Of a DNA stretch of 64,000 nt, positions 4,031 through 62,800 are shown one piece after another. Positions within the stretch are counted from its first letter, which is position 1; every line of letters starts with the position of its first letter. The notes below the pieces were generated by a model. The model made no database searches and was not told the DNA's origin. It was given only the letters and a program-made list of their open reading frames with translations. Both the position numbers and the translations under genes were made by a program. This DNA comes from a virus: positions 32,001 through 96,000 of IMG/VR virus record IMGVR_UViG_3300018080_008188. One strand, written 5' to 3'.

Positions 4031-4711
4031 GTGAATATGGCACTCAAACTTCTTCAGCCCGGCGGACCGCCCCTCGGACAGTTCGACATGCTCGACACCG
4101 ACACGGCGATTCTCGGAGGCGAAATCGGAACCCTTTCATCCGCGGCGCGCGCCAACTCGACGACCGAGAAGGCGGCCGCAGACGTTCTCGACGGATATGT
4201 CAACGACGCAGGAACCCTCAAAAGGGCCGTCGTCACCCGCACGCTCGCGAACGACAATGTTCGCCCGCTGTGGCTGCTCGACGAGGGAACCAAGAACTAC
4301 GGAACCCTCTTCGGCGTGACCATCGGCGTTCCCGCCGGTCTTGGCACGGGTTTCGCCAGCGGAGTCTATTCTGGCACCCCGCTCGGTCCCCATACCGGAG
4401 CCGCAAGCGGCAAGGTTACTTGCTGGGACAAGCCCGGCGTGTATGGCGTCACTCTGGATGCGGCCGACACTGCTGCAGCCAACGGCCTGACCCCGACCAA
4501 CACGACCCTAACTCCGGGATCTGCGCTGTACGCAACAGCCACCGGTCTTCTGACCCCGACGGTTGCCAAAACCCCAGGCGGAGCCGGTCCTGTCGTAGCT
4601 CGCTTTGTTGAGTTCGAGACGACCGAAGTGTCCTTGGTCCGCACGCCACCGTCACTTGTCGGCGCGAGCGAGCAGATTGAGCATGCGGTCATCAGCTACT
4701 TCCTCGAGTAG
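4031..4711 (+). CDS. Putative capsid decoration/cement protein
   Basis: 226-aa Gly/Thr/Ala-rich ORF with GGAGG RBS immediately upstream of MCP; motif ASGKVTCW..PG.Y...T..Y typical of decoration proteins at this position. Confidence 0.65.
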   Translation: MNMALKLLQPGGPPLGQFDMLDTDTAILGGEIGTLSSAARANSTTEKAAADVLDGYVNDAGTLKRAVVTRTLANDNVRPLWLLDEGTKNYGTLFGVTIGVPAGLGTGFASGVYSGTPLGPHTGAASGKVTCWDKPGVYGVTLDAADTAAANGLTPTNTTLTPGSALYATATGLLTPTVAKTPGGAGPVVARFVEFETTEVSLVRTPPSLVGASEQIEHAVISYFLE

Positions 4712-4733
4712 GCAAAATAGCATAACTTAACTT

Positions 4734-4754
4734 GGGGCCGCCATTGGCGGCCCC
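4734..4754 (+). other. GC-rich intergenic hairpin between decoration and capsid genes
   Basis: GGGGCCGCC-ATT-GGCGGCCCC perfect 9-bp stem, weak U tail. Confidence 0.6.
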
Positions 4755-4802
4755 CAGGTTTCAACCTTTCAGAACAAAGAGAACCCCAGGAGGTCAAAGA
4801 AA

Positions 4803-10844: not shown

Positions 10845-11147
10845 ATGAGCAGATTCAACTATTTTGAAAACATCAGCGTTGACGGGTACTCGTTTCCGAC
10901 TGTGCCGCAAGCCCAGTTCAACTTCATCGCGCAGGGAATATCTTTCCTGAACCGCGGTTCGAAAATCCTCCAGTATTCGTTCGACGGCACAAATGTCCAT
11001 GGCGACCTGGACCCGTCGGATGCCTCTGCTGGCCTCACATTCGACAGCCGGAACGAGCACCGGGTGTGGTTCAAGGGGGACGACGGGTACGGCACTGTGC
11101 GTGTTGAGGCATGGGGCGGCTGGGGCAAGAAGCTGACCAACCGATGA
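10845..11147 (+). CDS. Small beta-rich hypothetical virion protein
   Basis: 100 aa, GAGGT RBS, two DGY motifs, ends ...VRVEAW. Confidence 0.7.
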   Translation: MSRFNYFENISVDGYSFPTVPQAQFNFIAQGISFLNRGSKILQYSFDGTNVHGDLDPSDASAGLTFDSRNEHRVWFKGDDGYGTVRVEAWGGWGKKLTNR

Positions 11148-13846: not shown

Positions 13847-14377
13847 ATGGTTTTCCGCACGCCGGACGAGTTTCCGGGACCGTCTATAGATTCCGAATAC
13901 CGCATTACGGGACCGGACTATGACATCGACGAAGACGATTACGGCGTCCTAACTTTCGGCGCCGACGGCTATTTTGTTCTGGAAGACCTTTTTGGTCCGT
14001 TCAATCCAAGGTCGGGCGAGAGCGTCGACTATGTAACTGAAGAAGAACACAGGACGCTCAGGCAGCTGATCCATTTCATCGAAACCAACAGCCCCGGTCC
14101 CGGGTTTGGAGATGGCCCGTACGCATCTGAGGTCCTGCCTGCTGCTGACCCGTTTCCCACCAGCGAAACCTGGTTTAAAACAGCTGGAGACAGAACGGCT
14201 GGAACGGGCAAAATTTGCCGATGGGAAGCCACCTACAATGCGAACAAGACTTTTGCCACTGAGAAATGGATAGTATATAAGGCTGATGGTCTTAACCCTG
14301 CTGCTGATGCAACGGACACCATCAGCTATTCGGGAACCTTCGAAACCGGACGCAGCAGGGCATACACGGTGTACTGA
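13847..14377 (+). CDS. Hypothetical virion protein
   Basis: 176 aa, GAGGA RBS, acidic, contains DDYG and DGY. Confidence 0.65.
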   Translation: MVFRTPDEFPGPSIDSEYRITGPDYDIDEDDYGVLTFGADGYFVLEDLFGPFNPRSGESVDYVTEEEHRTLRQLIHFIETNSPGPGFGDGPYASEVLPAADPFPTSETWFKTAGDRTAGTGKICRWEATYNANKTFATEKWIVYKADGLNPAADATDTISYSGTFETGRSRAYTVY

Positions 14378-15504
14378 TGGCCAAATCTCCCATAGCGATC
14401 CTATATGATCATGTTAATTCGCGATTCCTGAAGTACATCCAGGACGGATATGAATCTTTGATGGGCGTCGCGTCCAAACTGCGGAATGCGGCTGGAACTA
14501 TTGTTAATCCGTCCACCGAGGATACGCTTGCCACACGCCTGTCACAAACCACCGGAGCTGCGATTCAGACGGTGCTTGAGGCAGTACGCGACACGGACGG
14601 AATCAAGAAAATCACTGATTCGCTGCCAGCCGGTGACAACAACATAGGGAATGTTGATGCAATACAGTCCGGCACATGGACTGTTCAGCAAGGCACACCG
14701 CCGTGGAAAATGGAGGGCAAGGATGCGGATGGCGCACCGCCGACGGAAAATCCCATTCTAGTGGCAGGACAGGACGGAACCAATGTTCAGTCTTTTAAAA
14801 CCAACGCTTCCGGACGTATTGAGAATGTGATCCATGATTCGTCCGGCAATGCCGTGGGCGTTGTTCTCGATGGTGCCGTTTACCGCCTGCAGGGCGATTC
14901 CAAAGTGGCCAAGGGCGATTTGGACTTGGTACATCTACAGGTTATCGATGTAGAATCCGGGCTGGGGCGGATGAAGACTACGATTTACACGCCGGACGGG
15001 GACCCAGTGGCGTTTGGAGCGGTTAGTTCATCAGTCAAAAACGATTTTGTAAAAACCGACGGTGGGTCCTCAAATCTGCTTGATACTTGGGCCGGGTCTC
15101 CTGTCACATACACATACGAAGCTGACGACGACTATGACATTTCTCTACAGGAAATCAGATTTACAATGGCGTCGAACAGCATAACCTTCGGGTCTGAATA
15201 CTTTGGAGCGGTTAGCGGACCGCTGACCAATGGACTGCTGATTGAAGCTGTGTCTAATGGAACGGCAGTAACAATATTCAACATTAAACAGAACGAAGAG
15301 TTTGTTCTGTTTGCTTCTCCTGGCGGCTGGGAATGGGTTGTGAGCAACAAAGACCTGATGACCAGCGCTTATCTGATAGGGGGCGGCTTGAAACTGTATG
15401 CCGGAACCGGCGACATGGTGAGGGTCACCGTGCGGGACGACATCGATTCTGCCGGCAATTATTTTCAATGTTTTGTGAAGGGCAACCTGCTGATGGAGGG
15501 TTAA
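14377..15504 (+). CDS. Putative virion fibre/structural protein
   Basis: 375 aa, stop/start overlap; DADGAPPTENPILVAG-type motif, beta-rich C-terminus. Confidence 0.55.
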   Translation: MAKSPIAILYDHVNSRFLKYIQDGYESLMGVASKLRNAAGTIVNPSTEDTLATRLSQTTGAAIQTVLEAVRDTDGIKKITDSLPAGDNNIGNVDAIQSGTWTVQQGTPPWKMEGKDADGAPPTENPILVAGQDGTNVQSFKTNASGRIENVIHDSSGNAVGVVLDGAVYRLQGDSKVAKGDLDLVHLQVIDVESGLGRMKTTIYTPDGDPVAFGAVSSSVKNDFVKTDGGSSNLLDTWAGSPVTYTYEADDDYDISLQEIRFTMASNSITFGSEYFGAVSGPLTNGLLIEAVSNGTAVTIFNIKQNEEFVLFASPGGWEWVVSNKDLMTSAYLIGGGLKLYAGTGDMVRVTVRDDIDSAGNYFQCFVKGNLLMEG

Positions 15505-43504: not shown

Positions 43505-43530
43505 AGAAAAAAACCACGGAGGATACGAGC

Positions 43531-44139: not shown

Positions 44140-44148
44140 CGACCCACG

Positions 44149-45300: not shown

Positions 45301-45305
45301 CGCAA

Positions 45306-47543: not shown

Positions 47544-47555
47544 GAGGAACTTGGC

Positions 47556-48413: not shown

Positions 48414-51400
48414 CCATTCTTCTGTCGACCCAGTCAGATCTGACGGACAGCCGCGGTCTTGGCGGCATCCTGTTTGAAACGGCAAGGGACATAGGCATAG
48501 ACGGATTTCCGGGACCTGGGACGGTTTCAAAAGCCCGCGGCAATATCGAATCGTTCCGCAAGGACGCGGCTGAGATCTTGTCGAACGCCATAGGCGGGAG
48601 CTTGCGCGAAGCCGGAGAGCCCAGCTTCGTTCATAGCGGGAAAAAGACGGTCGTTGGAACGAATGTTCCGGCCGGAGAGGGATACATCCCGCCGCTGGAA
48701 AGCGCGTCAAACCGTACCGTCTATAGCCAGCAGCCGGTGGCAAGCGTGCTGATCAAAAAGCGCGCTTTCTCGTCCCTGAATCACCTGTACGATCCGGTGC
48801 TGATGGACGATTCGGAAAAATGGTTGTTCCGTGCTACGAAGCGCTTGTTCATGAACAAGTGCGCTCAGATGCGCGATTACGAAATGCTCACCAAAATCAA
48901 GAAGCTCGCTGATCTGGGGTCGGAGGCAAGAACCGCACTGCTGTCTTTCATTACGAACTTCGGGGCGCAAATCAAGGAGATAGACTCCCAGTTCTACGGG
49001 GGAGGGACTGCCGGGGCTTCGGATGTGGAAAGGGTTTCAGGCAGATCGTATGACTCCGGATCCAACTGGTTTACTTCCGCCATGAGACTGGAAAGGCTGG
49101 CGAGGGCGAAGGAGCCCGTGGATTTTACCACATGGTTCTTCGAGCCGGACCTTCCGGTCGTCCCGGAACTCGGTCTTGGAAGCGGAGTGTTCGAAACCGC
49201 GCTTGTCACCAGCGCAAGCACAAGCCTGTCCCTTGACGGCTCCGGAACATGCTCCCTCTCTCTGCAGAATCCATACAACATCATGATGATCACGGAAAGC
49301 GACATCGAAGATGCGCTTCGTCAGTCTGCGCTGTCCCCGCTGACCGCCGGCATCGGCAGTGCAGCTTCCCGTGCGCTGTCGTCGGCACAGAGGTCAGACG
49401 GATTTCTGCAGGAAAGTCGCCGCAAGCGCGGCACGAGCGCCATCACTTTCACGGTGAACATCGGAGGCGGAAGCGGCGTGAAGGCCGTGATCGACGCCAT
49501 CGGGTATGAGATATTCTCGCAGGACGGAGAGGACAACTTCGACACCATACCGGACGGACACGACATGACGGACAACGAGCAGGCATGGTTCAAAGACGTG
49601 TACAGAAATCTAGGAGTGTACTCGTCGTCCGTGGCGAACAACATCATAAAGGGCAATCCGGCTTCTTCCAGGAAAGGCAAATACAAGGAGGAGATGAAAT
49701 ATGCAAGGCGGATGCTGAGGCGGTTCTATCTGGGCAGATATGTCATACAGCCGATGGACCAGATCAGCGTCTTCATCGACGGCGGAACAAGAAGACCTGG
49801 GGAGGGAAACTCCATCGGCGACGACGAGTCCAGCGAAAAGGCAGATTGGCGGTTCTACACCGAACTCGGCGGCGGGGCCCTGGCGGATGTTTTCGGGCTC
49901 AAAGAAGGGCACCATGTCGACGACAGGCTTCTCCTGGAAGCGTATAAGCGCAGTGGGCAGCATTTGAAGTTTCATGACTTCAAGAGGCTGGCCGTTTCCG
50001 GGGGAGGCATGCATGTGTTTGGCGGTCTGGTCATGAGCGCAGACGGATCGTTCAACGCCGAAAGCGGAACGCATACGCTCAGCATCAGCGCCGGGTCGAA
50101 CATGGAATGGCTCAAGATTTCCACCTACAATAAGAAGCCATCGCTGAAGCAGACAGACGGGATCGTTTACGATCCCCTTACGCCGTTCACATTCAAAACC
50201 GATCCGGCTTCCGGCCTGCCCATAGGACGCCCGGAGCTTACGGATGTGAACAAGGAGATCCTTGCGAAAGCCACCAGCGTGGTAACCGGCGGAGCAAATG
50301 CCGGAAAGCTCATAGCGTCCAGCAGGGCACCGGAGGAGTTCAAGGACGTTGTTGATATAGGAGGGGCGCTGGTTCCGCTCTACGACATGCCACCAGGCTT
50401 GAAATACAAATGGAAGGAAGGCATTGTCACCACCACATACGACATGTCGACCGTGGACCCCCTGGACAAGAGCAAAACAAACGAGCGGCAGCTGCGCAGG
50501 GACATTGGGCAGTTCGCTTCAAACATGCCGTTTCAGAATATGGATGTTGCCAACATCATATCGTCTCTCGTCACCGGATTTCCGTACAATCCGGCTACAT
50601 TCCTGACGAGCGCATTCAATACCGGTACATTTTCGACGGACACCACATTCAACAGCGGTCTCGACTATTTCCACAGCACCTTGGACTACCAGAAGTCGCT
50701 CAACCTTACGCACGGAAACTGGGCACCTTTCAAAATGCTGTCCACCAACCCAGGCCAGCTTGCGCGCGCATACGAGCTGCAGCTCAGGCTTACCAAGCAG
50801 TCGTCCGAGATACAGACCTTACAGACGCAGCTGGCGGAAGTCGGCGACAGCATTCTCAACAGCGATGCTTCCAGGACATCTCCAATCGGGGACAAGAATC
50901 CCGCCAGGGGAGACCTGTTGCGCAGCCAGAAAGCCCTGAATGAGAAAAAGGCCAGCCTTGAAAGCAAACTCAGAACGGCTCTCCAGAAGTTCGACGAAGA
51001 CTTTACAACGGCAAAGCAGAAGCATGATGTGCTCGGAGTCAGCATGGCAGGGAACGATGTCACATTCGATCTCCGCGGTGCCAAAGATTCCGAGGACTAT
51101 GCCTTCTTGGGAGACGAACTGATATTCTTGTCGCAGCGCCGGCGCGAAAATGTCATGTTCAACAGGGACAAGAATTATCTAATAGTTTCCGACGAGTACG
51201 ACAAGGACTTTGACATACAGGCTTTCAACCTGCAGCTTTCCGGCGCGAGCTTCAACATGTGGAGAAGCAACTGGAGACCGGTGTACGAACTGTGCAGGCA
51301 GGCTGCGGAAATCATAGACTTCGAATTCTTCATAAACACCCAGGGCCATCTTGAGCTGAGACCCCCGCAGTACAACAGGACGCCGGTTTCCGTGTTCACC

Positions 51401-53275
51401 GCCATGATGACATTTGCCAGAACAACCGGAATCAAGCTGTTTCCAGACTTTCTGGAGAAGCTGGTCCTAAGCAGGACGGAAAGCCTTTTGAGAGACATAA
51501 AGGTTCTCGAATACAAGATGCAAAGGGAGATGGCGATACTAAACGATCCTGAAAATGCTACTGCGGAAAAGCTCGGAATCAAGTGGTTTGTCAAAGACGG
51601 TGAAGATTTGCCAAAAGCAATGGCGGAGCAGGAGCCTCTGGAAGAAAAACAGAGATCAAGAATCCTTGAAACGGTAAGAAAGCTCGGGGCAGAAGCCCAG
51701 ACGATAGCAAGCCAACAGTTTGGTCTATTTTCATCCCGTTCTCAGGTGAACCTGATGCGAAGCCTAAAGGACAGTCCGTTTACTATAGCTTCGGAGGAAA
51801 TGTACAACCAGGCTGTCGAGAGCCTGGTCGTGCTCACCGGCAATCCGCGCAGAATATATGGGGAGTTCGAAGATGTAAAGGTGGGTGCCGCGAAGAACGG
51901 CAAGAGCACCCCGTCGAGCGACAGAGCGGCGGCCATTGGCCGCCTTAGCTCCTTTGTAAGCCGCAGGGCCAGGCTTCTGCGGAAGCTCGACAGCCATCTT
52001 GGGCAAGCCGAGGAAATCCTAGAGGTGAACGAGGGCGGGGGAACATCCCTAATAACCGGCGGCAGATGGGGTAGGCACATGCATGGGAACGCCGGCAGGA
52101 AAAACGACTTGTTCGACAAACTGGTTGTGGATGATGCCGCCAACATACTCGGGCACATGTCCGGTCGCCGATTCGTTATAGAAGACGATGTGATAAAGGA
52201 ATCGAGCTTCAAGGAGAGCCAACCGGGCTTTACGCATGTGTCCGTGCAGGGGACGGAGCCGCTCATAGGCGAGAGACTTGGCGGCGCCAGCGCAGGAGTG
52301 CCTATTTTCCTGGCAATAGGCGTGGATTTCGACATGTGGAGGCAGTACGGGTTTCGGTCGGAAAAACCCTTCGAAAAGCCGTTCCTATGGAACGCAGAGC
52401 AGCAGTGCGCTCCGTACGCAAAAATGCTTCTGTCCCGGCAGCGCAGAAACATAGTCACCGGAAACATCAAGGTGATAGGAAACGAATTCTACCAGCTGGG
52501 AGATGTGGTGTATGTAGCGGACAGGCAGCTTCTGTACTATGTTAATAGAATTTCGCACAACTTCGTGTACGAGGGCGATTTCTCGACTTCTCTTGAGCTG
52601 AACTACGGCCATCCTCCAGGAGAGTACATTCCGACGCCGACTGACATAATGGGCAAAAGCCTGTCAAACAAATACGACAAGCAGGCATCCTACCGTACCA
52701 GGCGCTTCGGTCCCGGCATGGGACCGTCTCAGGACATGGTGCTCGGAGCGGTGCTGTTTTCCGAAAGCGGTAGCGATTCGACCAAGCTGGACCTTTTGCG
52801 AAGCGGTTCCGGGCACGGAAGGCGCAACTACGATGTTCTTGTCCGGGCGCTTGCCACAATGCGCAGCGAAGCCGTTTCGGACGACAAGAGCCGCAATCCG
52901 CGTCTTCTGATACTTTCGTTCGGCGACAATTCAGACAAGTCGTCGCAGGAATCGAGGATGAAAAAAGTAAGCGACTGGTTTTTGAATCCAGAATCTGGAG
53001 CGCAGGCAAGCGACATGTCTGTTCCTTCATCTGCCATGTCGGCTGGAGGAAAGTTCGGCGGTATCAAACAGCTGGATCCAGCCAAGGTGGAAATCAGAAC
53101 CAAATTCGTGCCTCAGCTGCTGCCGGTAGGCCAGCTTTCGTCAACCGATCTCAACCTCCTCAGAGAGGGGTCGACAGCCAGTCCGGACGCGCACGCGCTT
53201 GATCCGACGCTGAAAAACGTAATCGAGATAAGGCTAAGAAGACCGCCGCCCGGCGGATGGACGGAGCAGGACTAG
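48410..53275 (+). CDS. Large baseplate hub protein
   Basis: 1621 aa from ATGA overlap; FEFF...GHL.LRPP.YN, YGFR, G..FYQLG..V...YYV..ISH.F...F.T.L.L hub signature. Confidence 0.7.
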   Translation: MTILLSTQSDLTDSRGLGGILFETARDIGIDGFPGPGTVSKARGNIESFRKDAAEILSNAIGGSLREAGEPSFVHSGKKTVVGTNVPAGEGYIPPLESASNRTVYSQQPVASVLIKKRAFSSLNHLYDPVLMDDSEKWLFRATKRLFMNKCAQMRDYEMLTKIKKLADLGSEARTALLSFITNFGAQIKEIDSQFYGGGTAGASDVERVSGRSYDSGSNWFTSAMRLERLARAKEPVDFTTWFFEPDLPVVPELGLGSGVFETALVTSASTSLSLDGSGTCSLSLQNPYNIMMITESDIEDALRQSALSPLTAGIGSAASRALSSAQRSDGFLQESRRKRGTSAITFTVNIGGGSGVKAVIDAIGYEIFSQDGEDNFDTIPDGHDMTDNEQAWFKDVYRNLGVYSSSVANNIIKGNPASSRKGKYKEEMKYARRMLRRFYLGRYVIQPMDQISVFIDGGTRRPGEGNSIGDDESSEKADWRFYTELGGGALADVFGLKEGHHVDDRLLLEAYKRSGQHLKFHDFKRLAVSGGGMHVFGGLVMSADGSFNAESGTHTLSISAGSNMEWLKISTYNKKPSLKQTDGIVYDPLTPFTFKTDPASGLPIGRPELTDVNKEILAKATSVVTGGANAGKLIASSRAPEEFKDVVDIGGALVPLYDMPPGLKYKWKEGIVTTTYDMSTVDPLDKSKTNERQLRRDIGQFASNMPFQNMDVANIISSLVTGFPYNPATFLTSAFNTGTFSTDTTFNSGLDYFHSTLDYQKSLNLTHGNWAPFKMLSTNPGQLARAYELQLRLTKQSSEIQTLQTQLAEVGDSILNSDASRTSPIGDKNPARGDLLRSQKALNEKKASLESKLRTALQKFDEDFTTAKQKHDVLGVSMAGNDVTFDLRGAKDSEDYAFLGDELIFLSQRRRENVMFNRDKNYLIVSDEYDKDFDIQAFNLQLSGASFNMWRSNWRPVYELCRQAAEIIDFEFFINTQGHLELRPPQYNRTPVSVFTAMMTFARTTGIKLFPDFLEKLVLSRTESLLRDIKVLEYKMQREMAILNDPENATAEKLGIKWFVKDGEDLPKAMAEQEPLEEKQRSRILETVRKLGAEAQTIASQQFGLFSSRSQVNLMRSLKDSPFTIASEEMYNQAVESLVVLTGNPRRIYGEFEDVKVGAAKNGKSTPSSDRAAAIGRLSSFVSRRARLLRKLDSHLGQAEEILEVNEGGGTSLITGGRWGRHMHGNAGRKNDLFDKLVVDDAANILGHMSGRRFVIEDDVIKESSFKESQPGFTHVSVQGTEPLIGERLGGASAGVPIFLAIGVDFDMWRQYGFRSEKPFEKPFLWNAEQQCAPYAKMLLSRQRRNIVTGNIKVIGNEFYQLGDVVYVADRQLLYYVNRISHNFVYEGDFSTSLELNYGHPPGEYIPTPTDIMGKSLSNKYDKQASYRTRRFGPGMGPSQDMVLGAVLFSESGSDSTKLDLLRSGSGHGRRNYDVLVRALATMRSEAVSDDKSRNPRLLILSFGDNSDKSSQESRMKKVSDWFLNPESGAQASDMSVPSSAMSAGGKFGGIKQLDPAKVEIRTKFVPQLLPVGQLSSTDLNLLREGSTASPDAHALDPTLKNVIEIRLRRPPPGGWTEQD

Positions 53276-53278
53276 AAC

Positions 53279-55555
53279 ATGACCTACGTATCCAACCATA
53301 TCAGGTTTGCCGTCGTAAAAAGCGTAGACTACGATCGCGGCTTGATGCGAACTACATGGCTGGATAGCAACGGGGAGGACGGTCCGGATGTTCCAATTCC
53401 GCACCCGGCCCAAGGGCGCGGGGAGGGAATATTCTCCGGCATAAGGCCGGGAATGCAAATAGCCCTAGACCTTGGCTCGTACGAAAGGTATGTGCCGACC
53501 TCCATCGTGCCCATGCGCGCCTTTACCACCTCGGACATAAGCTATGCCTCAGAAACGCGCGTCGAGGATGTGACGCCTCCGCATGTTGAAGAGGGGGAAA
53601 TCTGCATACAGGGACCGGCCGGCGGCCGGCTGTATTTCAACAGGTTGGCTGATGTCACTTTGGTAAACAGGCATTACGAGGGGCTTGTTTTGGGCGGCGA
53701 TGAGGACAAGGAGCACAGGTGCTCGATACAGTTCGGAGCTCCTGTCGGCTACTGCGTGTCGCAGGCTGGGCTGAAAGCCGAGGGAATCGTCAGAAGGGAC
53801 CTGCGCGACGACGAATCCGATTTTGACACGGCGATAGCGGACCCGATGACGGACATCGACTTCGAGCAGATTCTGGAAGAGGTCGGCAGGGACCCGTCAA
53901 AGGCCATAGCCATGTACACGCGCCATTCCGGGGCGGACAACGAGTCGAACGCCATGTCGACCGACCAGTTCAAAAACCCGCCGTTTGTGGAAAGGCGCAC
54001 GGTCATGAACGAGTTCGGAGCGGACTGGCGCATCGGCACGCAAGACGAGGAAGAGGCGCTGCTGCGGGGCGAGAAGAACATGATTGCCGTGCGGATCGCC
54101 GACGACAGGCGCGAGCGCAGAACGAACATTCTCAGCCTTTCATATGCTTTTCCGAACGAACTGATGGAGTCAGTAGACGGAACGCTAGTGGATTTGTTCG
54201 GAAACCTGCTGGACGCAAACAGGCATGCGCTGCCGCTGCCGAACGACAAGAACGAAAAGCAGTGGTTTGAAGCGGCAATTGAGAACGCCCAGCACACAAT
54301 AGCCATACACCGCGAAATAAACAGCAGGAAAGGATGGGGGTACAGATCAGACGGCCTCAGCCCGTTCAAGCACGAGGTGAACCCGCAGGTGCCGGGCGAT
54401 TCGTCGAACAATGCGCGCGATCGAAGCAGATGGTTTTTAGATGTGGACAAAGAGGGCTTTACGAAGGTCAACATACCGGCCACATCAGAAACGGGAGTTG
54501 TTCCGGTCCTTGCCAGGTACGAAAATTCAAGCACCGTGGTTGTCGACGAGGGCGGAGAGGCCGGAAAAAGTGGAAGGCCGAAAGACGACATTCGCGCCCT
54601 GTTCAGACCTTCGCCTGAGAAAATGGACAGGAGGGATATTTTCCTTGACCAGTTCGGTCCCGGGGGAATTACTGTTTCCGGACAGTCTCCGGGAGGCTCA
54701 AGCAGCCCCGTTCCCAGCAATAGGCTGGCCGGGGAGAAAACCAGCTGGATTGAAAGCAAAGACGGGAGCGCAAGCTCCAGACAAACGCTTCCGGGCATCG
54801 TCCAAGCCGGAACGGCCTTTCATGACATCACCCGGACCGCCGTCGCGCTGCTGAACGGCAGCATCAACAAGTCCTCAGACCAGGCGCTCGGTCCAGCCGC
54901 GATATTGGCAGACCCGCCCGCCGTGTTTCAGACCGTAAATCGAGCGGTTCCTGACAGGAACATTTCTGTCTTGCTGGACAAGTTTGGAAGACCTGTCAAC
55001 GCACCATATGCGGGAGGAAGAAGCCTGCAGGCAAATCTTGACGGTAGCCTGGAAATGTCCGTCGGAGCCAATACGGTCGACCGGCTGTCGCTGACAATGA
55101 ACACTGCCGGAGGAGTGGCTGCCAGGATTGGCAGGGACAGGATGGGGCGCAGCATGGTAATGCAGGCAGACGGAACCATAGCGCTTGAAGTGGGCGGGTT
55201 CGATTTCGTTGGTAGCTCATCTGGCGATACGGTCGACACTAGGTTTTCGGGAGGAGGAGTGCTGCGCAAGGACAGGCTTCCGAAAGATCAGACGGTCTTC
55301 AGGTCCGGCAAGGTGGTTATCCGGGTTCGCCGAAAAAGCCTGACGCAAGACGGTCCGGACGAAAGCGCGGACGACCAGGTAATTATAATCGACGAAAACG
55401 GCATGAGTATAGAGGTGGCGGGGCGCATGAACTTCGTATCCAAGGGCGATATGACATTCAAGACCGGATCGCGCTTCATGGTTGACGCCGAAGCGATACA
55501 GCTTTACAACGGCAACGCTGCCAGGTTTGTGATAAAGAACAACAAGAAGATCTAG
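53279..55555 (+). CDS. Putative baseplate central spike (gp5/gpV-like)
   Basis: N-terminal OB-fold pattern AVVKSVDY..G...V, beta-strand repeats at C-terminus; follows hub. Confidence 0.6.
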   Translation: MTYVSNHIRFAVVKSVDYDRGLMRTTWLDSNGEDGPDVPIPHPAQGRGEGIFSGIRPGMQIALDLGSYERYVPTSIVPMRAFTTSDISYASETRVEDVTPPHVEEGEICIQGPAGGRLYFNRLADVTLVNRHYEGLVLGGDEDKEHRCSIQFGAPVGYCVSQAGLKAEGIVRRDLRDDESDFDTAIADPMTDIDFEQILEEVGRDPSKAIAMYTRHSGADNESNAMSTDQFKNPPFVERRTVMNEFGADWRIGTQDEEEALLRGEKNMIAVRIADDRRERRTNILSLSYAFPNELMESVDGTLVDLFGNLLDANRHALPLPNDKNEKQWFEAAIENAQHTIAIHREINSRKGWGYRSDGLSPFKHEVNPQVPGDSSNNARDRSRWFLDVDKEGFTKVNIPATSETGVVPVLARYENSSTVVVDEGGEAGKSGRPKDDIRALFRPSPEKMDRRDIFLDQFGPGGITVSGQSPGGSSSPVPSNRLAGEKTSWIESKDGSASSRQTLPGIVQAGTAFHDITRTAVALLNGSINKSSDQALGPAAILADPPAVFQTVNRAVPDRNISVLLDKFGRPVNAPYAGGRSLQANLDGSLEMSVGANTVDRLSLTMNTAGGVAARIGRDRMGRSMVMQADGTIALEVGGFDFVGSSSGDTVDTRFSGGGVLRKDRLPKDQTVFRSGKVVIRVRRKSLTQDGPDESADDQVIIIDENGMSIEVAGRMNFVSKGDMTFKTGSRFMVDAEAIQLYNGNAARFVIKNNKKI

Positions 55556-55563: not shown

Positions 55564-57699
55564 ATGACGGCACCGAATCTTCCGGCACAGTTTCCCCTGC
55601 CGAGCAACGGCGGGCAGCCCATGACCTACGCAGAGTTGCTGCGGCAGCTTTCGTGCGTCTGCACCGCCGGCGTGCAGATAAAACCGACGGTTCCGCCCAG
55701 CGCTGCGATTGACCTGGGGGATGTGATAGCCGACTTTTCAAAGTACCTGACCGCATTCACGGCTCCATACAGCGTCCTGACCATCGTCATGCAGGTAATC
55801 GCATGCATCATCGACGTTCTGTGCGCCATTCCGAATCCATTTGCGATAGTTCGGGCGATGATAAGGCTGTTCGGCACATGTATTCCAGAATTCGTGCTGA
55901 TCTTTCCGCAGTTCGCAATACCTGCAAAAGTGCTGTGCGTATTGAAAGTCATAATTGCGATCCTGAGATTCGTCCTTGAAGTCATCGTTCCGCTGATCGA
56001 GGACTTGATTCAGAACATAGAGATTCTCAAAGCTGCCATAGAAGACGGTAACGAAGACGCAAAAGCGGCGGCGGTGTTCAAGATAATCCAGCACATCAAG
56101 GAAATGTACAATATAGTCGAAATAATCGCCGCACTTGAGGCGCTTATCATCATGATCAAGGCGCTGATTTCCGCCGGCATCTCAATTCCGTGCGGCGGAT
56201 CCGGCGGATCGTGCTCCGGATGCGGCGACGACCAGTGCCCGTCCGTAATCAAGCAATATGCTATCGACGGAACGGACGGCATAATGTACATACTGTACTA
56301 CTCGTCCGGAATCGAATACAGGCTCAGATTTGCATCGTCATCCAAGAGAAGCTCGTTTCTGACGCTTCGGGACTTCTTTCCGAACATAGACTATGCGTCC
56401 ATAGACGACCTTGACAAGGTCCCATATGTGCTTGAGGTGGGAGCGGGATCCCAGATGCGCAGCTTTGCCGTCACCAGCGTGGACCGCAGCGGAACGCTAA
56501 ACATTAGGCAGATAGAGAATGCGTATGCCGAAGACGGATACATGTCGAGCGTTTACAACCACATGGGCGTGGCAACTCCGGTGCCGAATCCGGACGACCA
56601 GGTGCGCTTCGGCACAAGCATCAGGACATTCCATGAAGTCGGCATAGATGACTATCTTGAGATATCCGACACGAATGCCAGCGGAAGCGAACTAAACTCC
56701 GGAACTTTCAAGGTCAACCTCGTATATGACGACTACAATGCAAGAATAGAAAGAACCGACGGAAACGGATGGTCTGCCGACGCAACGCTCGATCCGAGCG
56801 GCGGAACCGGTCCCGGAGACCTTCTGGTATGGCGGACCGCGTTAACGGCGCCGTCGTTCTCCGGTCCGCAGCAGTTTTCGCTAAAGATAGACCACGAACT
56901 TCTAATAAAGCACAATCTCATAGGATCAGGGTGCCACCCCGAAGTCAGTGCCGCGGTGGAAGGGATAAGCAGCAGGTTCCCGTTCGTAACAAGCATCAGT
57001 CTGCCGGAGCTTCCGTCAGGAATCGATGTGAACGACGACGGAACAGTCGCTCTCATGCAGTCGTGTATCAGCTGCCTGTCTACCATTGCGCCGAGCGACC
57101 TGGACGAACAGTATGTCCTCGACAATTACAATGTCATGGCTCAGGAGGCGGCTTCGTCCGCCGCATGCCTCGAAAGCGCGCTTTCGTCGGCTGCAGACGA
57201 CCTGTCCGAATATGCCGAAGGCGTTTATCCGAGGCTGTTTTCCTCGGAGCAATCCACGCTTTCTTCCAACCGCGTGGTGCAATATATCGGGGGCGATGTG
57301 GAGATAACCATAACCGCTCTTGACCACTCTGGAAACAGCATCAACGAAACCGTCCCGGAAGGAATGGTTGATGCCGAAATATTTACGACTTTCGGTAATG
57401 TTGGGGAAGTTGAGGAGGTGGTCGGCGACGACGGCCTGCCCACTGGAGAATACAAGGCTACGCTGACAAGCGCGGAAGCGGGCATGGCAGAGGTGACCGG
57501 AAGCGTGGCGGGAATTTTCGTTAGTGATTTTGACGAGACTCCGCTTGACAGAACGCCGCCGGAGCCCCCTGTGCTTGTTCCCAGGTCCTTGGAAATACGC
57601 TTTGTGGAGCCGCCCGAGCAGCGCCGCAAGCATCCTGAAGAGCTTGGCGAAGGCGCCGGCTCCGCCGAGCCGCTCGGCATAGCCAAGACAAGGAGCTAG
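55564..57699 (+). CDS. Baseplate-region protein with hydrophobic N-terminus and Ig-like C-terminus
   Basis: Ile/Val-rich helices aa ~60-205; Cys cluster; GEYKATLTS..AG.AEVT invasin-like Ig motif. Confidence 0.55.
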   Translation: MTAPNLPAQFPLPSNGGQPMTYAELLRQLSCVCTAGVQIKPTVPPSAAIDLGDVIADFSKYLTAFTAPYSVLTIVMQVIACIIDVLCAIPNPFAIVRAMIRLFGTCIPEFVLIFPQFAIPAKVLCVLKVIIAILRFVLEVIVPLIEDLIQNIEILKAAIEDGNEDAKAAAVFKIIQHIKEMYNIVEIIAALEALIIMIKALISAGISIPCGGSGGSCSGCGDDQCPSVIKQYAIDGTDGIMYILYYSSGIEYRLRFASSSKRSSFLTLRDFFPNIDYASIDDLDKVPYVLEVGAGSQMRSFAVTSVDRSGTLNIRQIENAYAEDGYMSSVYNHMGVATPVPNPDDQVRFGTSIRTFHEVGIDDYLEISDTNASGSELNSGTFKVNLVYDDYNARIERTDGNGWSADATLDPSGGTGPGDLLVWRTALTAPSFSGPQQFSLKIDHELLIKHNLIGSGCHPEVSAAVEGISSRFPFVTSISLPELPSGIDVNDDGTVALMQSCISCLSTIAPSDLDEQYVLDNYNVMAQEAASSAACLESALSSAADDLSEYAEGVYPRLFSSEQSTLSSNRVVQYIGGDVEITITALDHSGNSINETVPEGMVDAEIFTTFGNVGEVEEVVGDDGLPTGEYKATLTSAEAGMAEVTGSVAGIFVSDFDETPLDRTPPEPPVLVPRSLEIRFVEPPEQRRKHPEELGEGAGSAEPLGIAKTRS

Positions 57700-59376: not shown

Positions 59377-59377
59377 C

Positions 59378-59806
59378 ATGTCGTACGACCTGAAGCTGGA
59401 AAACAACGACCTTTCAATCAATCCGGACGGAACCGTCAAGACGGTCAGGGACAATGAAAAGCTGAAGCAGGATATTGTGCGCGCCATCCTGACGCCCGTT
59501 GGCGCTAATGCGTTCCATCAGTGGTACGGAAGCACCATCAATGCCGGCATCGTTGGAAGCGGCATGAGTGCCGGGCAGATAGAGGCGGAGGCAAAGAGGT
59601 CGATCCAGGAGACGCTCAACAACCTGATCTCTCTGCAAAAGACGCAAGCCAGGATACAGTATGTGTCTCCCGGCGAACAGCTTATGGCGGTTAGGGAAAT
59701 AGAGGTTCTACAGGACGATATCGACCCGAGGCAGTTTCAAGTGACGGTCTATGCCCTTACAAGGCTTCTGACTCCGGTTGAAGAGACATTCACGATGTTA
59801 GTGTAG
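59378..59806 (+). CDS. Baseplate wedge protein (gp25-like)
   Basis: DL.L...DL, KLKQDI...LTP.G...FH.WYGS, DPRQ..V; precedes baseplate J. Confidence 0.8.
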   Translation: MSYDLKLENNDLSINPDGTVKTVRDNEKLKQDIVRAILTPVGANAFHQWYGSTINAGIVGSGMSAGQIEAEAKRSIQETLNNLISLQKTQARIQYVSPGEQLMAVREIEVLQDDIDPRQFQVTVYALTRLLTPVEETFTMLV

Positions 59807-59839
59807 GCTTAAGCCACCCCATTTGGAGGGACCGAAAAA

Positions 59840-62800
59840 ATGGTCAGATTCAAAGGATACAACGAAGTCGTCCTTACCATGCTGGAGCAGCTACAGATGA
59901 CGCAGCCACAGCTTGATACAAAGCCGGCATCCGTGGCCAGGGACCTTTTCATCGACGCCCAGGCGCAGCAGGTGTCCGACATCGGCGAGCAGCTCAGGGA
60001 GATAGAGGAACTACAGTCCATTGCCAACATGTCCGGAGAGGAACTAACAAACTTTGGATTCAACTTCGGAGTTACGAGGCAATCGGGAACCAGGTCCAAT
60101 GGGACGGTGCTGTTTACCTTCCAGAGTATCACATCGGACACGATTATCGTGTCGGGAACTGTCACCAGCACGAGAAACGGCATAATGTTTTTGACCATTT
60201 CCACAGTGTCGGTGCTGACATCGGATATCAATTCGCTCAGGGCCACGGCAACAAGATTCAGGGAAGAACTTGATGCCGCAGGCATAACGGACCAGTATGC
60301 GATCGAGGTAAGCGTACAAGCCCAAAATGCTGGGTCGATAGGGAACATTTCGTCTTACAGCATTGTCAACCACAGCGCGCCTGGCGTCAATGGAGTCACC
60401 AACATAGATTCGTTCAGCGGCGGATCTGACCTTGAGACTGATGCGGCGTTCCGCTCAAGAGTTCTGGCGCGGTTCGCAGGAGCGAACACCGGAACAGCGC
60501 TCGGATACAGAAGCCTGGTCCTTGCGCTGTCCGATACCGTAGATGCGCTTGTTGTGGAGCCCGGAGACCCACTTATGACCAGGGATGGATCCGTCGTGAC
60601 GACCAACAGTGACGGGGAGCTGGTTGTGGCGCAACCTGGGACCGGAGGAAAAGTAGACATCTTCGTCATGGGCGAAAACCTGCAGTCGGGCACGGACAGC
60701 TTTATCTACAAGGAGCAGAGCGGGACCGGCGATCCGACGAACTCGCTGAATAACTACATTCTTGGTCAGAGTTCGCTCAGTCCGGATGAATCTCTTACGA
60801 TCAGTACGCGGAGGCTGGCTGTCCTTTCGGAAGGTCAAGCCATTCCCCTACAGCCCGTGTCAAGCATCGTTTCCGTGAGCGGAAGCTCGTCAGGATCGGG
60901 ATTTGCCGAACAATACGAAGATGACGCTGGCGTACTGCATGGAAATTACAAGCTCGTGAAGGACACCGGGTCTGCGGCTGGAAGCCCGTTCGGATTCGAC
61001 AAGCTGGTATGGACGTCAGACCAGATAGACCTTGAAGACGAATCGCGCGTCAAGGGTCCGTTCAACGGAATAGACGCCCTGTCGTTCTCTGATGTACAGA
61101 AAGTGTCTGGCGTCAGCCAGGACACGCGCGTCACAAATGAAAACTCCAGAGTGTCGTCTGCTGACAGGAGTTCCGTGTATCTGACGCACGGACCGGTCAG
61201 GACTGTCAGCAGGGTATACAACTTCACCACGGGAGAAAGGTACACGGTTTCCTCCCAAAACCCGGACGGCACATCGGGGGAACTGAACGAATCCAGAAGA
61301 ATAACCATCAGTGGACGCACTTTGCCGACAGCCAGCGATGTGCTGCAGGTGGACTATGTATGGGCGCGTAGCGCCGACCCTGGCATTGATTTCGACACTA
61401 TGTATCCGGAGCAGGACCTGATCAGTTCGGTCCAGGATTCCATAGACTGGGGCTTTCCTAACTACATCAGGGCTGAAAGAACTCAGACGGACCTCGATTC
61501 GTACGGAAATCTGACGGCCACCGTCACATACGCAGCATCGCGGGTTATGTCTGTCAACTCCTTTCGCGAGGAGATGCTTGTGGTGCAGTCCGGTGCCACC
61601 GCAGGTCGCAAATCTGTTGAAACGACATATGCCGTGACGAATGTCTACAGCGCCATTGATGCCGACCAGAACCAGGCTGAAGTGTTCAATACCAATGAAG
61701 ACGACGGAACTTTTTCAAATAGGCTGATTACCCTTCCGAGCGACACCCTTGCGGAAATAGGCGACCAAGTAACTGTGACATACAGCCTCTCAAACCTGAT
61801 AGACGAGGATGGATACGGTTCCGCGCCTGTTCGCGGAAGGGTCATCACCATCCTTCCTTCCGACGCCGCCGGCGATGCGACGCAGGTTTTGGTCCATTAT
61901 GTGGCTGACTTTTTGAACCTGGTTCCGCAGAGCAGCATATCTGGTCTGCCAATTTCCGGAGACGGATACAATTCGTTTTCCGGAATCGACGGATACCAGC
62001 CTGTCCAGGACCTGTTTTCAGGTCCGGACCCGGTTGCTAACATGCGCAGATCCCCAAGCAGGCTGGAAGTGTCTGTTTCTGGAATTCCCGACCAAGGGCT
62101 GCTGGAGATAGCCGGCACCACGTTTACGAAAATCACTTCTGTGTTCACAGCTACAGCCGACGACAGCATAAACCTTGTCCCATCCATCAGGTCGAGTCTT
62201 GGCCTTGCATCTGGCACCAGCCTTCCCGTCGGAGTGTATTTGGGGCGCGTTGTGTCCATTGAAAAAGTGCAGACGGACATCTACGGAAATGTAACGTCGG
62301 TGGACCATGAATTTGACATGACTAACTATACGCTGTGGAGCAACAGGTTCGACCTGGCCAATGCGCGCCAGGACACATCTCTGGGGCGCGGAAAAGTGTC
62401 ATTGGCAGATGTTGGCAACAACACTTCCAGCCCGATCGTCACAGGAACGCAACTCAGGGCTGTATTCTACTATGCCAATCAAGGCGATTCTGAGCAGCTG
62501 TTCTTTTCCAAATCGGGAGCGGCCATTACCGACAAGGTTTTTGCAAAAATAGGATCCATCAGTAGAATTTCGGGATTTGCGAATTCTGCAGGCACAATCA
62601 GCGGAAGCCTGTCCGTAGATTCCCTGAACCAGCCGGATGTCAATGCGTCATACCTTGCCAGCTACAGCTACACGGCTCCGAAAGAAAACGAGCGCATCAC
62701 AGTTAACTACGAGTATAACAAACTCATACAAGACGCCACATATGCTGTTGAAGACGGAAGACCCATAACAGCCGACGTCCTAAACAAAGAGTCCACGCAG

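What the first reader, a model, noticed from the sequence alone, without database searches (positions are those of the whole stretch)
4190..62000. DGY tripeptide tag spread over surface-exposed virion proteins: candidate virion-wide modification system
Seen: by hand I count about 37 exact DGY motifs in the real + strand genes (7 in 19103..20812, 6 plus the D-stop-Y site in 24704..26704, 4 in 31906, 3 each in 30791 and baseplate J, 2 each in 10845, 26718 and sheath, singles elsewhere), plus variants DAYG/DSYG/DDYG. A rough composition estimate gives only about 4 expected in ~20,000 aa. Codons vary (GACGGATAC, GACGGCTAT, GACGGGTAT, GACGGTTAC), so selection appears to act on the protein. The host proteins are non-homologous, and I find no DGY in the MCP, tubes, tape measure, hub, spike, the three upstream head proteins or the MTase cassette. 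Inference: DGY is a sequon for post-translational decoration of the virion surface (e.g. Tyr O-glycosylation, known from some bacterial S-layers, or isoaspartate chemistry at Asp-Gly) or a docking motif for a decoration protein. The modifying enzyme is not identifiable in this window.
Basis: partly seen in the sequence, partly recalled or inferred. Interest (0 to 1): 0.9.

Follow-up and report, generated by a model that had tools for sequence, protein, structure and literature searches.

The report
DGY tag on outer virion proteins
The outward-facing neck-side, sheath, baseplate and fibre proteins of this uncultured sediment phage carry the tripeptide Asp-Gly-Tyr about ten times more often than chance, a real and undescribed mark that something probably reads, perhaps a sugar-adding enzyme, though no modification has been shown.

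Summary
The window's + strand genes carry 37 DGY against 3.5-5.75 expected; 2000 shuffles gave 3.6 +/- 1.9, maximum 12. All 37 GAYGGNTAY sites lie in frame and 1 lies on the other strand. A 38th site, D-TGA-Y, reads GGA in another assembly. The motif is exact: pooled DGY is 9.1x, NGY 0.5x, DGF 0.9x, DAY 2.6x. It is a protein-level and clade-level trait. DGY is the top tripeptide in G001, G003 and G004, whose GC runs from 41 to 56%. It is at baseline in sister-clade record G008 and in phage G. Of the G000 sites, 25 of 34 are kept in G001 and 0 of 21 in G008. MCP, tubes, tape measure and the proteins between tape measure and wedge have none.

I read it as a tag read in trans, most likely a sequon for phage glycosyltransferases acting on Tyr (about 0.4). 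A glycan cluster starts 9 kb beyond the window. That cluster also exists in DGY-poor relatives; only one 1228-aa transferase tracks DGY, and that rests on roughly one evolutionary event. The sulfotransferase is excluded (0 of 15 relatives). No modification is shown. This scan noted the same motif before in at least 22 other genomes.

The parts
4031..4711 (+). 226-aa ORF just upstream of the MCP; DGY at aa 54 (nt 4190-4198)
   Evidence: DGY is present at this site in 21 of 21 sequences (G000 and the 20 relatives) with MCP >=81% identical, in 8 of 55 others, and deleted in the remaining 47. No similarity to phage G gp26 'capsid decoration', so a decoration role rests on position only.
10845..11147 (+). 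100-aa ORF; DGY at aa 13 and 80
   Evidence: Both sites are DGY in the G003 orthologue. No PHROG or Pfam match.
13847..15504 (+). Two ORFs (176 aa, 375 aa) with one DGY each (aa 40; aa 23)
   Evidence: Their G001 and G004 best matches carry 2-6 DGY.
19103..20812 (+). 569-aa fibre-like protein with 7 DGY (aa 26, 144, 154, 258, 321, 385, 426)
   Evidence: In 30 homologues with 50% mean column identity, the DGY triplets at 144-146 and 154-156 are invariant; at 26, 258 and 426 two of the three residues are listed invariant or >=90%. AF2 mean pLDDT 68.5. Foldseek found no match at E <= 0.001; the weak rows include phage fibres.
21305..22819 (+). ORFs 21305-21598 (97 aa, DGY 27) and 21932-22819 (295 aa, DGY 150)
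   Evidence: No family match.
22825..23970 (+). 381-aa HNH endonuclease-like ORF with one DGY (aa 229); probably a chance site
   Evidence: PHROG HNH match, E 3e-6. No orthologue in G001, G003, G004 or G008. Its flank scores lowest of all sites.
24704..26704 (+). 666-aa virion protein; DGY at aa 250 plus the DGY island
   Evidence: The orthologue in G003 is uninterrupted. The C-terminal part matches phrog_38102 'virion structural protein'.
25736..25807 (+). DGY island D(TGA)YGQDGYRDGYDGYSPRDGYDGY; the TGA lies at 25739-25741
   Evidence: The TGA aligns with Gly of G003. A Logan contig of run X1 (depth 26.5, possibly the source sample) reads G at 25739, giving GGA. Similar islands occur in relatives, up to (DGY)6.
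26718..30776 (+). 1352-aa beta-helix tailspike-like protein; DGY at aa 10 and 308
   Evidence: Pfam Beta_helix and NosD; PHROG tail spike; DGY positions.
30791..31138 (+). 115-aa ORF with 3 DGY (aa 14, 27, 36)
   Evidence: No family match.
31906..37299 (+). 1797-aa protein with 4 DGY (aa 453, 489, 599, 711)
   Evidence: Of the 3 sites aligned with the G003 orthologue, 2 are DGY and 1 is DAY. It shares its N-terminal 59 aa and C-terminal about 170 aa with 26718-30776.
38933..39706 (+). 257-aa ORF upstream of the sheath gene; DGY at aa 119
   Evidence: The site is kept in G003; the G001 orthologue carries 1 DGY.
40303..42876 (+). Tail sheath (857 aa); DGY at aa 162 and 444, outside the conserved C-terminal sheath domain
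   Evidence: PHROG sheath match covers aa 652-854. Site 162 is DGY in 5 of 13 sequences (G000, G001, G002, G003, G005); the other 8 have other residues beside the invariant Gly, except G010, which has DTI. Site 444 is DGY in 5 of 13.
55564..57699 (+). 711-aa baseplate-region protein; DGY at aa 324
   Evidence: The site is kept in G003.
59840..63097 (+). Baseplate wedge gp6/J-like protein (1085 aa); DGY at aa 657, 708, 717, beyond the conserved N-terminal core
   Evidence: phrog_6 match covers aa 5-262. In G003 one site is DGY and the others are DGF and GGY.
42905..55555 (+). DGY-free inner tail block: two tube-like ORFs, tape measure, a 1654-aa ORF and a 758-aa ORF
   Evidence: 0 DGY here and 0 in the G001 and G003 orthologues. 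PHROG matches to phrog_985 'virion structural protein' (tube-like by position) and to tape measure. The labels 'hub' and 'spike' rest on gene order only.

Best explanation
DGY is a short linear tag on the outward-facing virion proteins of one clade of large uncultured myoviruses, and a trans-acting factor reads it. The most likely reader is one of the phage's own soluble glycosyltransferases, which would attach a sugar to the Tyr hydroxyl of exposed D-G-Y turns in the cytoplasm, before or during assembly. The rest of the glycan cluster (GT4, GT2, methyltransferases, GDP-mannose dehydratase and an epimerase) would then extend it into a virion-wide glycan coat. Shown here: the enrichment, its exactness, its conservation, its restriction to non-inner structural proteins, its clade distribution, and the presence of the glycan cluster after the fibre genes.
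For: (1) All three residues are specific. Pooled over G000, G003 and G004 (133,182 aa), DGY is 190 against 20.9 expected (9.1x). NGY is 0.5x, EGY 0.6x, DGF 0.9x and DGW 1.2x. Only DAY (2.6x), DNY (2.1x) and DGT (2.1x) rise as well. A generic Asx-Gly turn would accept Asn, and an aromatic packing site would accept Phe.
(2) The sites were gained within one lineage and then kept. 25 of 34 aligned G000 sites are DGY in G001 at 48% overall identity, and 18 of 26 in G003/G004. 0 of 21 are DGY in sister-clade G008, whose orthologues have few or none. At sheath site 162 the Gly is invariant, but Asp and Tyr together occur only in the five closest genomes. The same folds therefore work without DGY.
(3) The carriers are unrelated: 1 similar pair among 18 ORFs. 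G000 flanks do not score as copies of the fibre repeat (Mann-Whitney p 0.13; 2 of 40 sites above the 95th percentile of control positions).
(4) DGY islands such as DGYRDGYDGYSPRDGYDGY here, and (DGY)6 and (DGY)5 in G010, cannot be hairpin turns and look like sequon arrays.
(5) Inner tail proteins and the MCP have none in G000; the inner tail proteins have none in G001 or G003 either, and the MCP orthologues of G003 and G004 have none. The 1-36 kb block of this genome has none in 11,774 aa.
(6) A cluster of soluble enzymes follows the fibre genes directly: a fused double GT4, a 1228-aa protein with CgeB-like and GT2 domains, further GT2s, three SAM methyltransferases, Gmd and an epimerase.
(7) Homologues of the 1228-aa protein were found in G001, G002, G005 and G009, in part in G011 and G012, in 0 of 7 DGY-poor records and in 0 of 5 outgroups.
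Against: No modification is shown, and no family known to glycosylate Tyr was recognised. PDB matches of the GT4 are generic.
The glycan cluster is not specific to DGY-rich genomes. DGY-poor G006, G007, G008 and G010 have GT4 homologues after their fibres. G008 has four GT4-type proteins, a GT2, a UDP-glucose dehydrogenase, an epimerase and Gmd there, yet DGY is 21 against 14 expected.
On the MCP tree 46 of the 47 DGY-less rows form one clade (SH-aLRT 88). The link between DGY and the 1228-aa gene therefore rests on about one event.
The DGY-richest record, G012, shows only partial matches to that gene, and most records are 18-66% complete.
Of the six sites lying in better-modelled parts of the two AF2 models, four have D-G at a strand end or turn, with Tyr at or next to the following strand where one follows directly. 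A structural role fits that as well.
Flanks are as conserved as the rest of the protein (0.50 against 0.48), so the sites are not islands in variable loops.
Non-virion proteins show no depletion of DGY (0 against 1.4 and 3 against 1.0 expected).
Confidence: 0.4

Rival explanations
1. DGY is a lineage-specific structural device. An Asp-Gly two-residue turn is followed by a Tyr that starts the next beta-strand, and it stabilises the hairpin-rich outer proteins or their contacts. Nothing reads it in trans.
For: In the AF2 models, D144/G145, D154/G155 and D321/G322 of the 569-aa protein and D162/G163 of the sheath lie at strand ends or turns, with Tyr at or next to the following strand at 144, 154 and 162. 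Position -1 is Leu, Val or Ile in 36% of 184 sites, and Leu is enriched at +1 and +3. In G003, G004 and G012 fibres DGY sits at fixed places of tandem repeats. Sites are strongly conserved within the clade.
Against: NGY, DGF and DGW are not enriched. 0 of 21 sites are DGY in the sister clade's orthologues. Sheath site 162 keeps only the Gly outside the five closest genomes. Tandem (DGY)n islands cannot be hairpins. MCP and tube-like proteins have none. Two of the six modelled sites lie inside strands, and both models are of modest confidence (pLDDT 68.5 and 56.8).
Confidence: 0.2
2. DGY is a non-covalent docking or adhesion patch. Exposed Asp and Tyr pairs would bind a ligand many times over the particle surface. 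The ligand could be a polysaccharide of the host envelope or the environment, or a phage decoration or assembly protein.
For: The distribution is the same as for the main reading: outer proteins only, exact residues including the Tyr hydroxyl, and islands inside fibre proteins even in DGY-poor relatives. From general knowledge, recalled and not from a call, Tyr plus Asp is a common make-up of sugar-binding sites.
Against: Three residues are very small for a binding site. No candidate reader protein was found. Nothing here separates this reading from covalent modification.
Confidence: 0.2
3. The Tyr of DGY is sulfated by the phage's PAPS-type sulfotransferase (L003:17467-18387).
For: Pfam Sulfotransfer_3 match, E 1e-8. 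The translation contains stretches that, by my recall of sulfotransferase motifs, resemble the PAPS-binding loops. Acidic residues near Tyr favour sulfation in known systems (recalled).
Against: No homologue in 0 of 15 related records, including DGY-rich G001 (84% complete) and G002 (100% complete). The dipeptide DY is not enriched: 32 against 38.5 expected. No PDB relative with E below 0.5.
Confidence: 0.03
4. The enrichment is a by-product of a DNA-level signal, of composition, or of spread of one repeat module.
For: G000 prefers GAC and GGA within the motif. 77 of 190 DGY segments from three genomes cluster by BLAST, mostly fibre repeats of G003 and G004.
Against: 37 of 37 DNA matches are in frame and 1 lies on the other strand. 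Relatives use GAT where G000 uses GAC. Shuffles never exceed 12. 79 of 190 segments are singletons, and G000 flanks do not match the repeat profiles.
Confidence: 0.02

Closest known systems
Virion glycosylation of mycobacteriophages by phage-encoded glycosyltransferases (Freeman et al. 2023; the paper is not held; seen only as one passage in PMC12619734)
   Same: Phage-encoded soluble glycosyltransferases; structural proteins as the proposed targets; a proposed shielding role.
   Different: According to that passage the glycans sit at the C-termini of the capsid and tail tube subunits. Here MCP and tube-like proteins have no DGY. The tag is a tripeptide scattered over many outer proteins, Tyr rather than Ser or Thr is implied, and nothing is shown chemically.
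Glycosylation of staphylococcal Ser-Asp repeats by the GT4 enzymes SdgA and SdgB (PMC3794999 and PMC8561734; search listing and starts of abstracts only)
   Same: Glycosyltransferases acting on a hydroxyl residue next to Asp in short tandem repeats. The DGY islands resemble such arrays. The phage's GT4 matches PDB chains 7ec1, 7ec3 and 7ec7 at E 6e-9; that these chains are SdgB is recalled, not taken from the output.
   Different: A dipeptide with Ser against a tripeptide with Tyr. Most DGY sites are single, not tandem. The similarity to those chains is the generic GT4 C-terminal half.
Tyrosine O-glycosylation of bacterial S-layer proteins (review PMC2943079; passages read)
   Same: A sugar O-linked to Tyr on a self-assembling surface protein lattice.
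   Different: In that review's model the glycan is moved across the cytoplasmic membrane and transferred by a specific O-oligosaccharyltransferase, most likely during secretion. The passages found held neither 'consensus' nor 'sequon', so no sequon was seen there. Phage particles assemble in the cytoplasm. I did not search this genome for an oligosaccharyltransferase.
Two-residue Asx-Gly beta-hairpin turn (general structural knowledge, recalled)
   Same: D-G at a turn with the next residue starting a strand, as in four of six modelled sites.
   Different: Such turns accept Asn and many residues after Gly. Here only D, G and Y together are enriched, and the sister clade does without them.

Membership tests
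Phage virion glycosylation (mycobacteriophage type) | Phage-encoded glycosyltransferases linked to the structural genes | tested here: met
   Pfam GT4, CgeB-like and GT2 domains in ORFs at genome 105,129-118,221, directly after the fibre genes. The same arrangement is seen in G001.
Phage virion glycosylation (mycobacteriophage type) | Targets are the capsid and tail tube subunits | tested here: not met
   MCP 4803-5828 and tube-like 42905-44139 have 0 DGY. Whether they carry sugars elsewhere cannot be told.
Phage virion glycosylation (mycobacteriophage type) | Glycans shown on virion proteins | not testable with these tools
   This needs mass spectrometry or glycan staining of particles, and the phage is uncultured.
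Sequon-type tag read by an enzyme | Exact residues required, with near-variants not enriched | tested here: met
   DGY 9.1x against NGY 0.5x, EGY 0.6x, DGF 0.9x.
Sequon-type tag read by an enzyme | The tag comes and goes with the enzyme across genomes | tested here: inconclusive
   The 1228-aa transferase is found in 4 records fully and 2 partly of the 8 other DGY-rich records, in 0 of 7 DGY-poor records and in 0 of 5 outgroups. This amounts to about one event on the MCP tree. The other cluster genes are also present in DGY-poor records.
Sequon-type tag read by an enzyme | Tag avoided in proteins that should not be modified | tested here: inconclusive
   Genome 1-36,000: 0 observed against 1.4 expected. 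Genome 105-134 kb: 3 against 1.0. There is no statistical power.
Asx-Gly beta-hairpin structural motif | D-G at a turn between strands | tested here: inconclusive
   4 of 6 sites in better-modelled regions lie at a strand end or turn and 2 lie inside strands. The models have pLDDT 68.5 and 56.8.
Asx-Gly beta-hairpin structural motif | Conserved wherever the fold is conserved | tested here: not met
   0 of 21 aligned sites are DGY in G008. Sheath site 162 keeps only the Gly.
Tyrosine sulfation (TPST or RaxST type) | The sulfotransferase is present wherever the motif is enriched | tested here: not met
   0 of 15 relatives hold a homologue of P0053.
Collagen-like G-X-Y repeat (for the islands) | Gly at every third residue over a long run | tested here: not met
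   The G000 island has irregular Gly spacing. The G010 runs are only 5-6 triplets and are flanked by ordinary sequence.
DNA-level motif | Occurs irrespective of reading frame | tested here: not met
   37 of 37 matches are in frame 0.

The most novel reading that the evidence does not exclude
A clade of large uncultured phages coats its whole outer surface (neck-side proteins, sheath outer domains, baseplate periphery, tailspikes, fibres) with glycans. Cytoplasmic phage enzymes attach them to the Tyr of a three-residue sequon, D-G-Y. The sequon began as tandem islands in the fibres and then spread by point substitutions into dozens of unrelated proteins. This would be the first Tyr-directed protein glycosylation sequon and the first virion-wide tag in a phage.
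Probability: 0.3. Interest if true: 0.9.

Novelty: new variant of a known kind. Interest (0 to 1): 0.74.

Why it matters
If something reads the tag, these phages show a new way of marking proteins for the particle surface. A three-residue signal evolvable by single substitutions would also be a compact tag for display or glyco-engineering. If the motif turns out to be structural, a turn motif gained dozens of times in one lineage would still be unusual.

Tried and rejected
DNA-level signal: rejected.

Chance or composition: rejected.

Cryptic copies of one repeat module: rejected for G000. It does contribute to the counts in G003, G004 and G012.

TGA read as Gly: rejected. 16 of 51 ORFs end in TGA, there are no tRNA genes, and another assembly has GGA at the site.

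Tyr sulfation as the general cause: rejected.

Collagen-like reading of the islands: rejected.

'DGY sits in variable loops': not supported here, since flank identity is 0.50 against 0.48.

Prohead-protease site: 10 of 37 sites lie in the first 60 aa, but most carriers are tail proteins. I did not pursue it.

'Capsid decoration' label for 4031-4711: no similarity to phage G gp26.

Fold search of the 569-aa model: no match at E <= 0.001. The sheath model was too poor in its conserved domain to map domains. I could not compute solvent exposure because model coordinates are not returned.

I sent no complex prediction, because enzyme-substrate pairs rarely pass and a failure would say nothing.

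Literature: 'DGY motif' gave 0 papers. 'Asp-Gly-Tyr' gave 18 papers, and none of the 10 listed concerns phages. Searches on virion glycosylation and tyrosine O-glycosylation gave no DGY sequon. The 'moraphage' paper PMC12619734 (passages only) describes another lineage. Its supplements, and the paper by Freeman et al., could not be seen and might bear on known target sites.

Run X2 held 0.06 of the sampled words and nothing from it could be laid, so it says nothing.

Full report
WHAT THE WINDOW IS. The window is bases 32,001-96,000 of a single 134,081-bp virus contig. It holds the structural module of a large myovirus. PHROG matches identify the major head protein at 4803-5828 (E 2e-76), methyltransferase-like ORFs at 5924-10737, the tail sheath at 40303-42876, two ORFs at 42905-44139 matching phrog_985 'virion structural protein' (tube-like by position), the tape measure at 45306-47543, a gp25-like wedge protein at 59378-59806 and a gp6/J-like wedge protein at 59840-63097. 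ORF 26718-30776 carries a right-handed beta-helix. The closest cultured relative by MCP is Bacillus phage G at 52% identity. IMG/VR holds 173 relatives, and the best 80 have MCP 72-92% identical, on contigs up to 442 kb.

THE OBSERVATION. The 52 + strand ORFs total 20,585 aa and contain 37 DGY. Composition predicts 3.5 and a dipeptide Markov model predicts 5.75, giving Poisson p 3e-18. The next most deviant tripeptide reaches only p 5e-4. The five permutations of D, G and Y occur 0-7 times. 2000 shuffles of each protein gave 3.63 +/- 1.85, with a maximum of 12. The DNA pattern GAYGGNTAY occurs 37 times on the + strand, always in frame 0, and once on the - strand. In the whole contig it occurs 50 times on + and 3 times on -. 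None lies in 1-36,000, 47 lie in 36,190-104,400 and 3 lie in 121-128 kb. Two fibre-like ORFs just beyond the window (2284 aa and 948 aa) carry 5 each.

They total 7,553 aa, where 21.4 sites would be expected at the density of the other proteins. Against composition alone that zero is not a significant depletion. One of the 37 sites lies in an HNH endonuclease-like ORF (22825-23970), which has no orthologue in four relatives. I take it as a chance site.

THE D-STOP-Y SITE. The TGA at 25739-25741 aligns with a Gly in the uninterrupted G003 orthologue. A Logan contig of run X1 has G instead of T at 25739, giving GAT GGA TAC; that run has depth 26.5 and may be the sample this DNA came from. The contig has no tRNA genes, and 16 of its 51 ORFs end in TGA. 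The stop is therefore an assembly difference or a minor variant, not recoding. Gene 24704-26704 encodes one 666-aa protein with seven DGY, six of them in a 24-residue island.

PROTEIN LEVEL AND CLADE LEVEL. I counted the pattern on both strands of 20 other records. It is many times higher on the coding strand than on the other strand and than a reversed-pattern control in G001 (130 against 8), G002 (102 against 8), G003 (90 against 3), G004 (69 against 2), G005 (69 against 1), G011 (50 against 2) and G012 (165 against 5). G009 has 83 plus 35. Counts are near the reversed-pattern control, or in G007, G008 and G010 only about two to three times above it, in G006, G007, G008, G010, G013, G014 and G015. 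They are at baseline density per kb in phage G, Rctr197k, LR745208, Tunturi_5 and Rhodococcus phage E3.

Full proteome statistics agree with the pattern counts. DGY is the top tripeptide in G003 (86 against 8.6-15.8 expected, p 9e-35), G004 (62 against 6-10, p 3e-28) and G001 (106 against 14-26, p 2e-32). In G008 it ranks 235th (21 against 14, p 0.05). These genomes have 39-56% GC. Relatives mostly use GAT where G000 uses GAC, so selection acts on the peptide. G000 does prefer GAC (93% against 64%) and GGA (60% against 35%) within the motif, and I cannot explain that.

HOW EXACT THE MOTIF IS. Pooled over G000, G003 and G004, DGY is 9.1 times expectation. At the first position no other residue reaches 1.6x; NGY is 0.5x and EGY 0.6x. 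In the middle, Ala (2.6x) and Asn (2.1x) rise partly. At the last position only Thr (2.1x) and Ser (1.4x) rise; DGF is 0.9x and DGW 1.2x. The flanks carry little information. Position -1 is Leu, Val or Ile in 36% of sites, and Leu is enriched at +1 and +3.

ARE THE CARRIERS RELATED? In G003, G004 and G012, many sites sit at fixed places of tandem fibre repeats. One 3641-aa ORF of G012 has 57 DGY, and 77 of 190 DGY segments cluster by BLAST. In G000 this is not the explanation. Only 1 pair among the 18 DGY-bearing ORFs is similar. Profiles built from the repeat contexts score G000 flanks no better than control positions (p 0.13; 2 of 40 above the 95th percentile).

CONSERVATION AND TURNOVER. 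18 of 26 aligned G000 sites are DGY in G003/G004, at 43% overall identity, and 25 of 34 are DGY in G001 at 48%. In 30 homologues of the 569-aa protein, the DGY at 144 and 154 are invariant and those at 26, 258 and 426 nearly so. Replacements are mostly DAY, DSY, DVY, DGF, GGY or DGS. The relatives also have sites of their own: 19 in G003/G004.

Flanks of +/-10 residues are as conserved as the proteins overall (0.50 against 0.48). The sites are therefore neither islands in variable loops nor part of conserved cores.

Against the DGY-poor sister record G008, 0 of 21 aligned sites are DGY. At sheath site 162 the Gly is invariant in all 13 sequences, but Asp and Tyr together occur only in G000, G001, G002, G003 and G005. 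In the ORF upstream of the MCP, DGY is present in all 21 sequences with MCP >=81% identical and in 8 others; in the remaining 47 the residues are deleted. On a quick MCP tree, 46 of those 47 form one clade (SH-aLRT 88). Presence against absence is therefore about one evolutionary event.

STRUCTURE. AF2 models were of modest quality: pLDDT 68.5 for the 569-aa protein with 30 sequences, and 56.8 for the sheath with 13. Six sites lie in better-modelled parts. At four of them (144, 154 and 321 in the 569-aa protein; 162 in the sheath) D-G lies at a strand end or turn, with Tyr at or next to the following strand at 144, 154 and 162. The other two (258 and 444) lie inside strands. Foldseek found no match at E <= 0.001. 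The sheath sites lie outside the conserved C-terminal sheath domain, and the wedge sites lie beyond the conserved N-terminal core. By general knowledge of these folds that places them on the outside, but I could not measure exposure.

THE CANDIDATE ENZYMES. Directly after the fibre genes, at genome 105,129-118,221, lie a 762-aa double GT4, a 1228-aa protein with CgeB-like and GT2 domains, further GT2 proteins, three SAM methyltransferases, a Sulfotransfer_3 protein, GDP-mannose 4,6-dehydratase and an epimerase.

I then tested which of these track DGY.
- The sulfotransferase has no homologue in 0 of 15 relatives, so it cannot explain a clade-wide motif.
- The GT4 is present in 10 of 15 relatives, including the DGY-poor G006, G007, G008 and G010, at the matching place after their fibres.
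- G008 has a glycan cluster there with four GT4-type proteins, a GT2, a UDP-glucose dehydrogenase, an epimerase and Gmd.
- Only the 1228-aa protein follows DGY. It gave strong matches in G001, G002, G005 and G009 and partial matches in G011 and G012. It gave none in 7 DGY-poor records and none in 5 outgroups. It also gave none in G003 and G004, whose contigs lack that region: G003 ends just after its fibre genes, and in G004 no tail-gene orthologues were found.
- Its first 140 residues resemble CBM_4_9 modules in a language-model search (score 0.94, a lead only).

Because the split is about one event and most records are 18-66% complete, this link is suggestive and no more.

READING. A motif that is exact in three residues, was gained at dozens of places in unrelated outer proteins of one lineage, was kept thereafter, is dispensable in the same folds of the sister lineage, and also occurs as tandem islands is best explained by something that reads it in trans. 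With a large set of soluble sugar enzymes beside the fibre genes, and Thr and Ser as the only partly tolerated replacements for Tyr, O-glycosylation of Tyr is my first choice (about 0.4). A purely structural turn (about 0.2) and a non-covalent docking or sugar-binding patch (about 0.2) remain open. DGY-poor relatives still keep DGY islands in their fibres next to their glycan clusters. That would fit an older, fibre-only system that later spread, but this is inference.

KNOWN AND NEW. Searches for 'DGY motif' (0 papers) and 'Asp-Gly-Tyr' (18 papers, none of the 10 listed on phages) found no description. The nearest known systems are mycobacteriophage virion glycosylation (seen only as a passage in PMC12619734), SdgA/SdgB glycosylation of Ser-Asp repeats (listing and abstracts) and Tyr-linked S-layer glycans (passages of PMC2943079). 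This scan had already noted the same motif in at least 22 other genomes. I treated those notes as leads. My tests agree on the enrichment and on the inner-against-outer pattern. They qualify two claims: that the motif sits in variable loops, and that it comes and goes with the sugar-transferase block as a whole.

Noticed in passing
window 25739-25741: The in-frame TGA inside the DGY island of gene 24704-26704 is GGA in a Logan contig of run X1, which may be the source sample. It is an assembly difference or a minor variant, not a broken or recoded gene.
   Followed up: yes
window 22825-23970 and 37824-38933: Two HNH endonuclease-like ORFs sit inside the structural module. The first has no orthologue in G001, G003, G004 or G008, and the second has only a partial match in G001. 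They are probably mobile homing endonucleases.
   Followed up: partly
window 26718-30776 and 31906-37299: The 1352-aa beta-helix protein and the 1797-aa protein share their first 59 aa (36% identity) and last about 170 aa (31%), but nothing in between. They look like exchangeable middles on a common adaptor and tip.
   Followed up: no
window 16499-18279: A poly-gamma-glutamate hydrolase-like ORF (PHROG E 3e-25) and a metallophosphoesterase-like ORF lie among the structural genes.
   Followed up: no
L003:17467-18387 (genome 112,467-113,387): A PAPS-type sulfotransferase sits in the glycan cluster. It has no homologue in 15 related records, so it is a private addition of this phage.
   Followed up: yes
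L156 (G012:1-12,500, - strand): One 3641-aa fibre ORF carries 57 DGY. Recurring spacings of about 23 and about 90-100 aa suggest tandem domains. It also holds an island with 8 DGY in 36 residues.
   Followed up: partly
L160 (GTDB contig of 171,750 bp): The only hit in 185,579 species genomes is a contig of a MAG binned as Bacteroidia, with an MCP 75% identical. This is either a host hint or a mis-binned phage contig.
   Followed up: no
window, all DGY codons: G000 uses GAC in 93% and GGA in 60% of DGY motifs, against 64% and 35% elsewhere. GGA is also mildly preferred in G003 and G004. I have no explanation.
   Followed up: partly
L126-L127 (G008:21,459-42,057): The DGY-poor sister record has a glycan cluster after its fibre genes, with at least four GT4-type proteins, a GT2, a UDP-glucose dehydrogenase, an epimerase and Gmd among the 10 ORFs scanned. 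Its target is unknown.
   Followed up: partly
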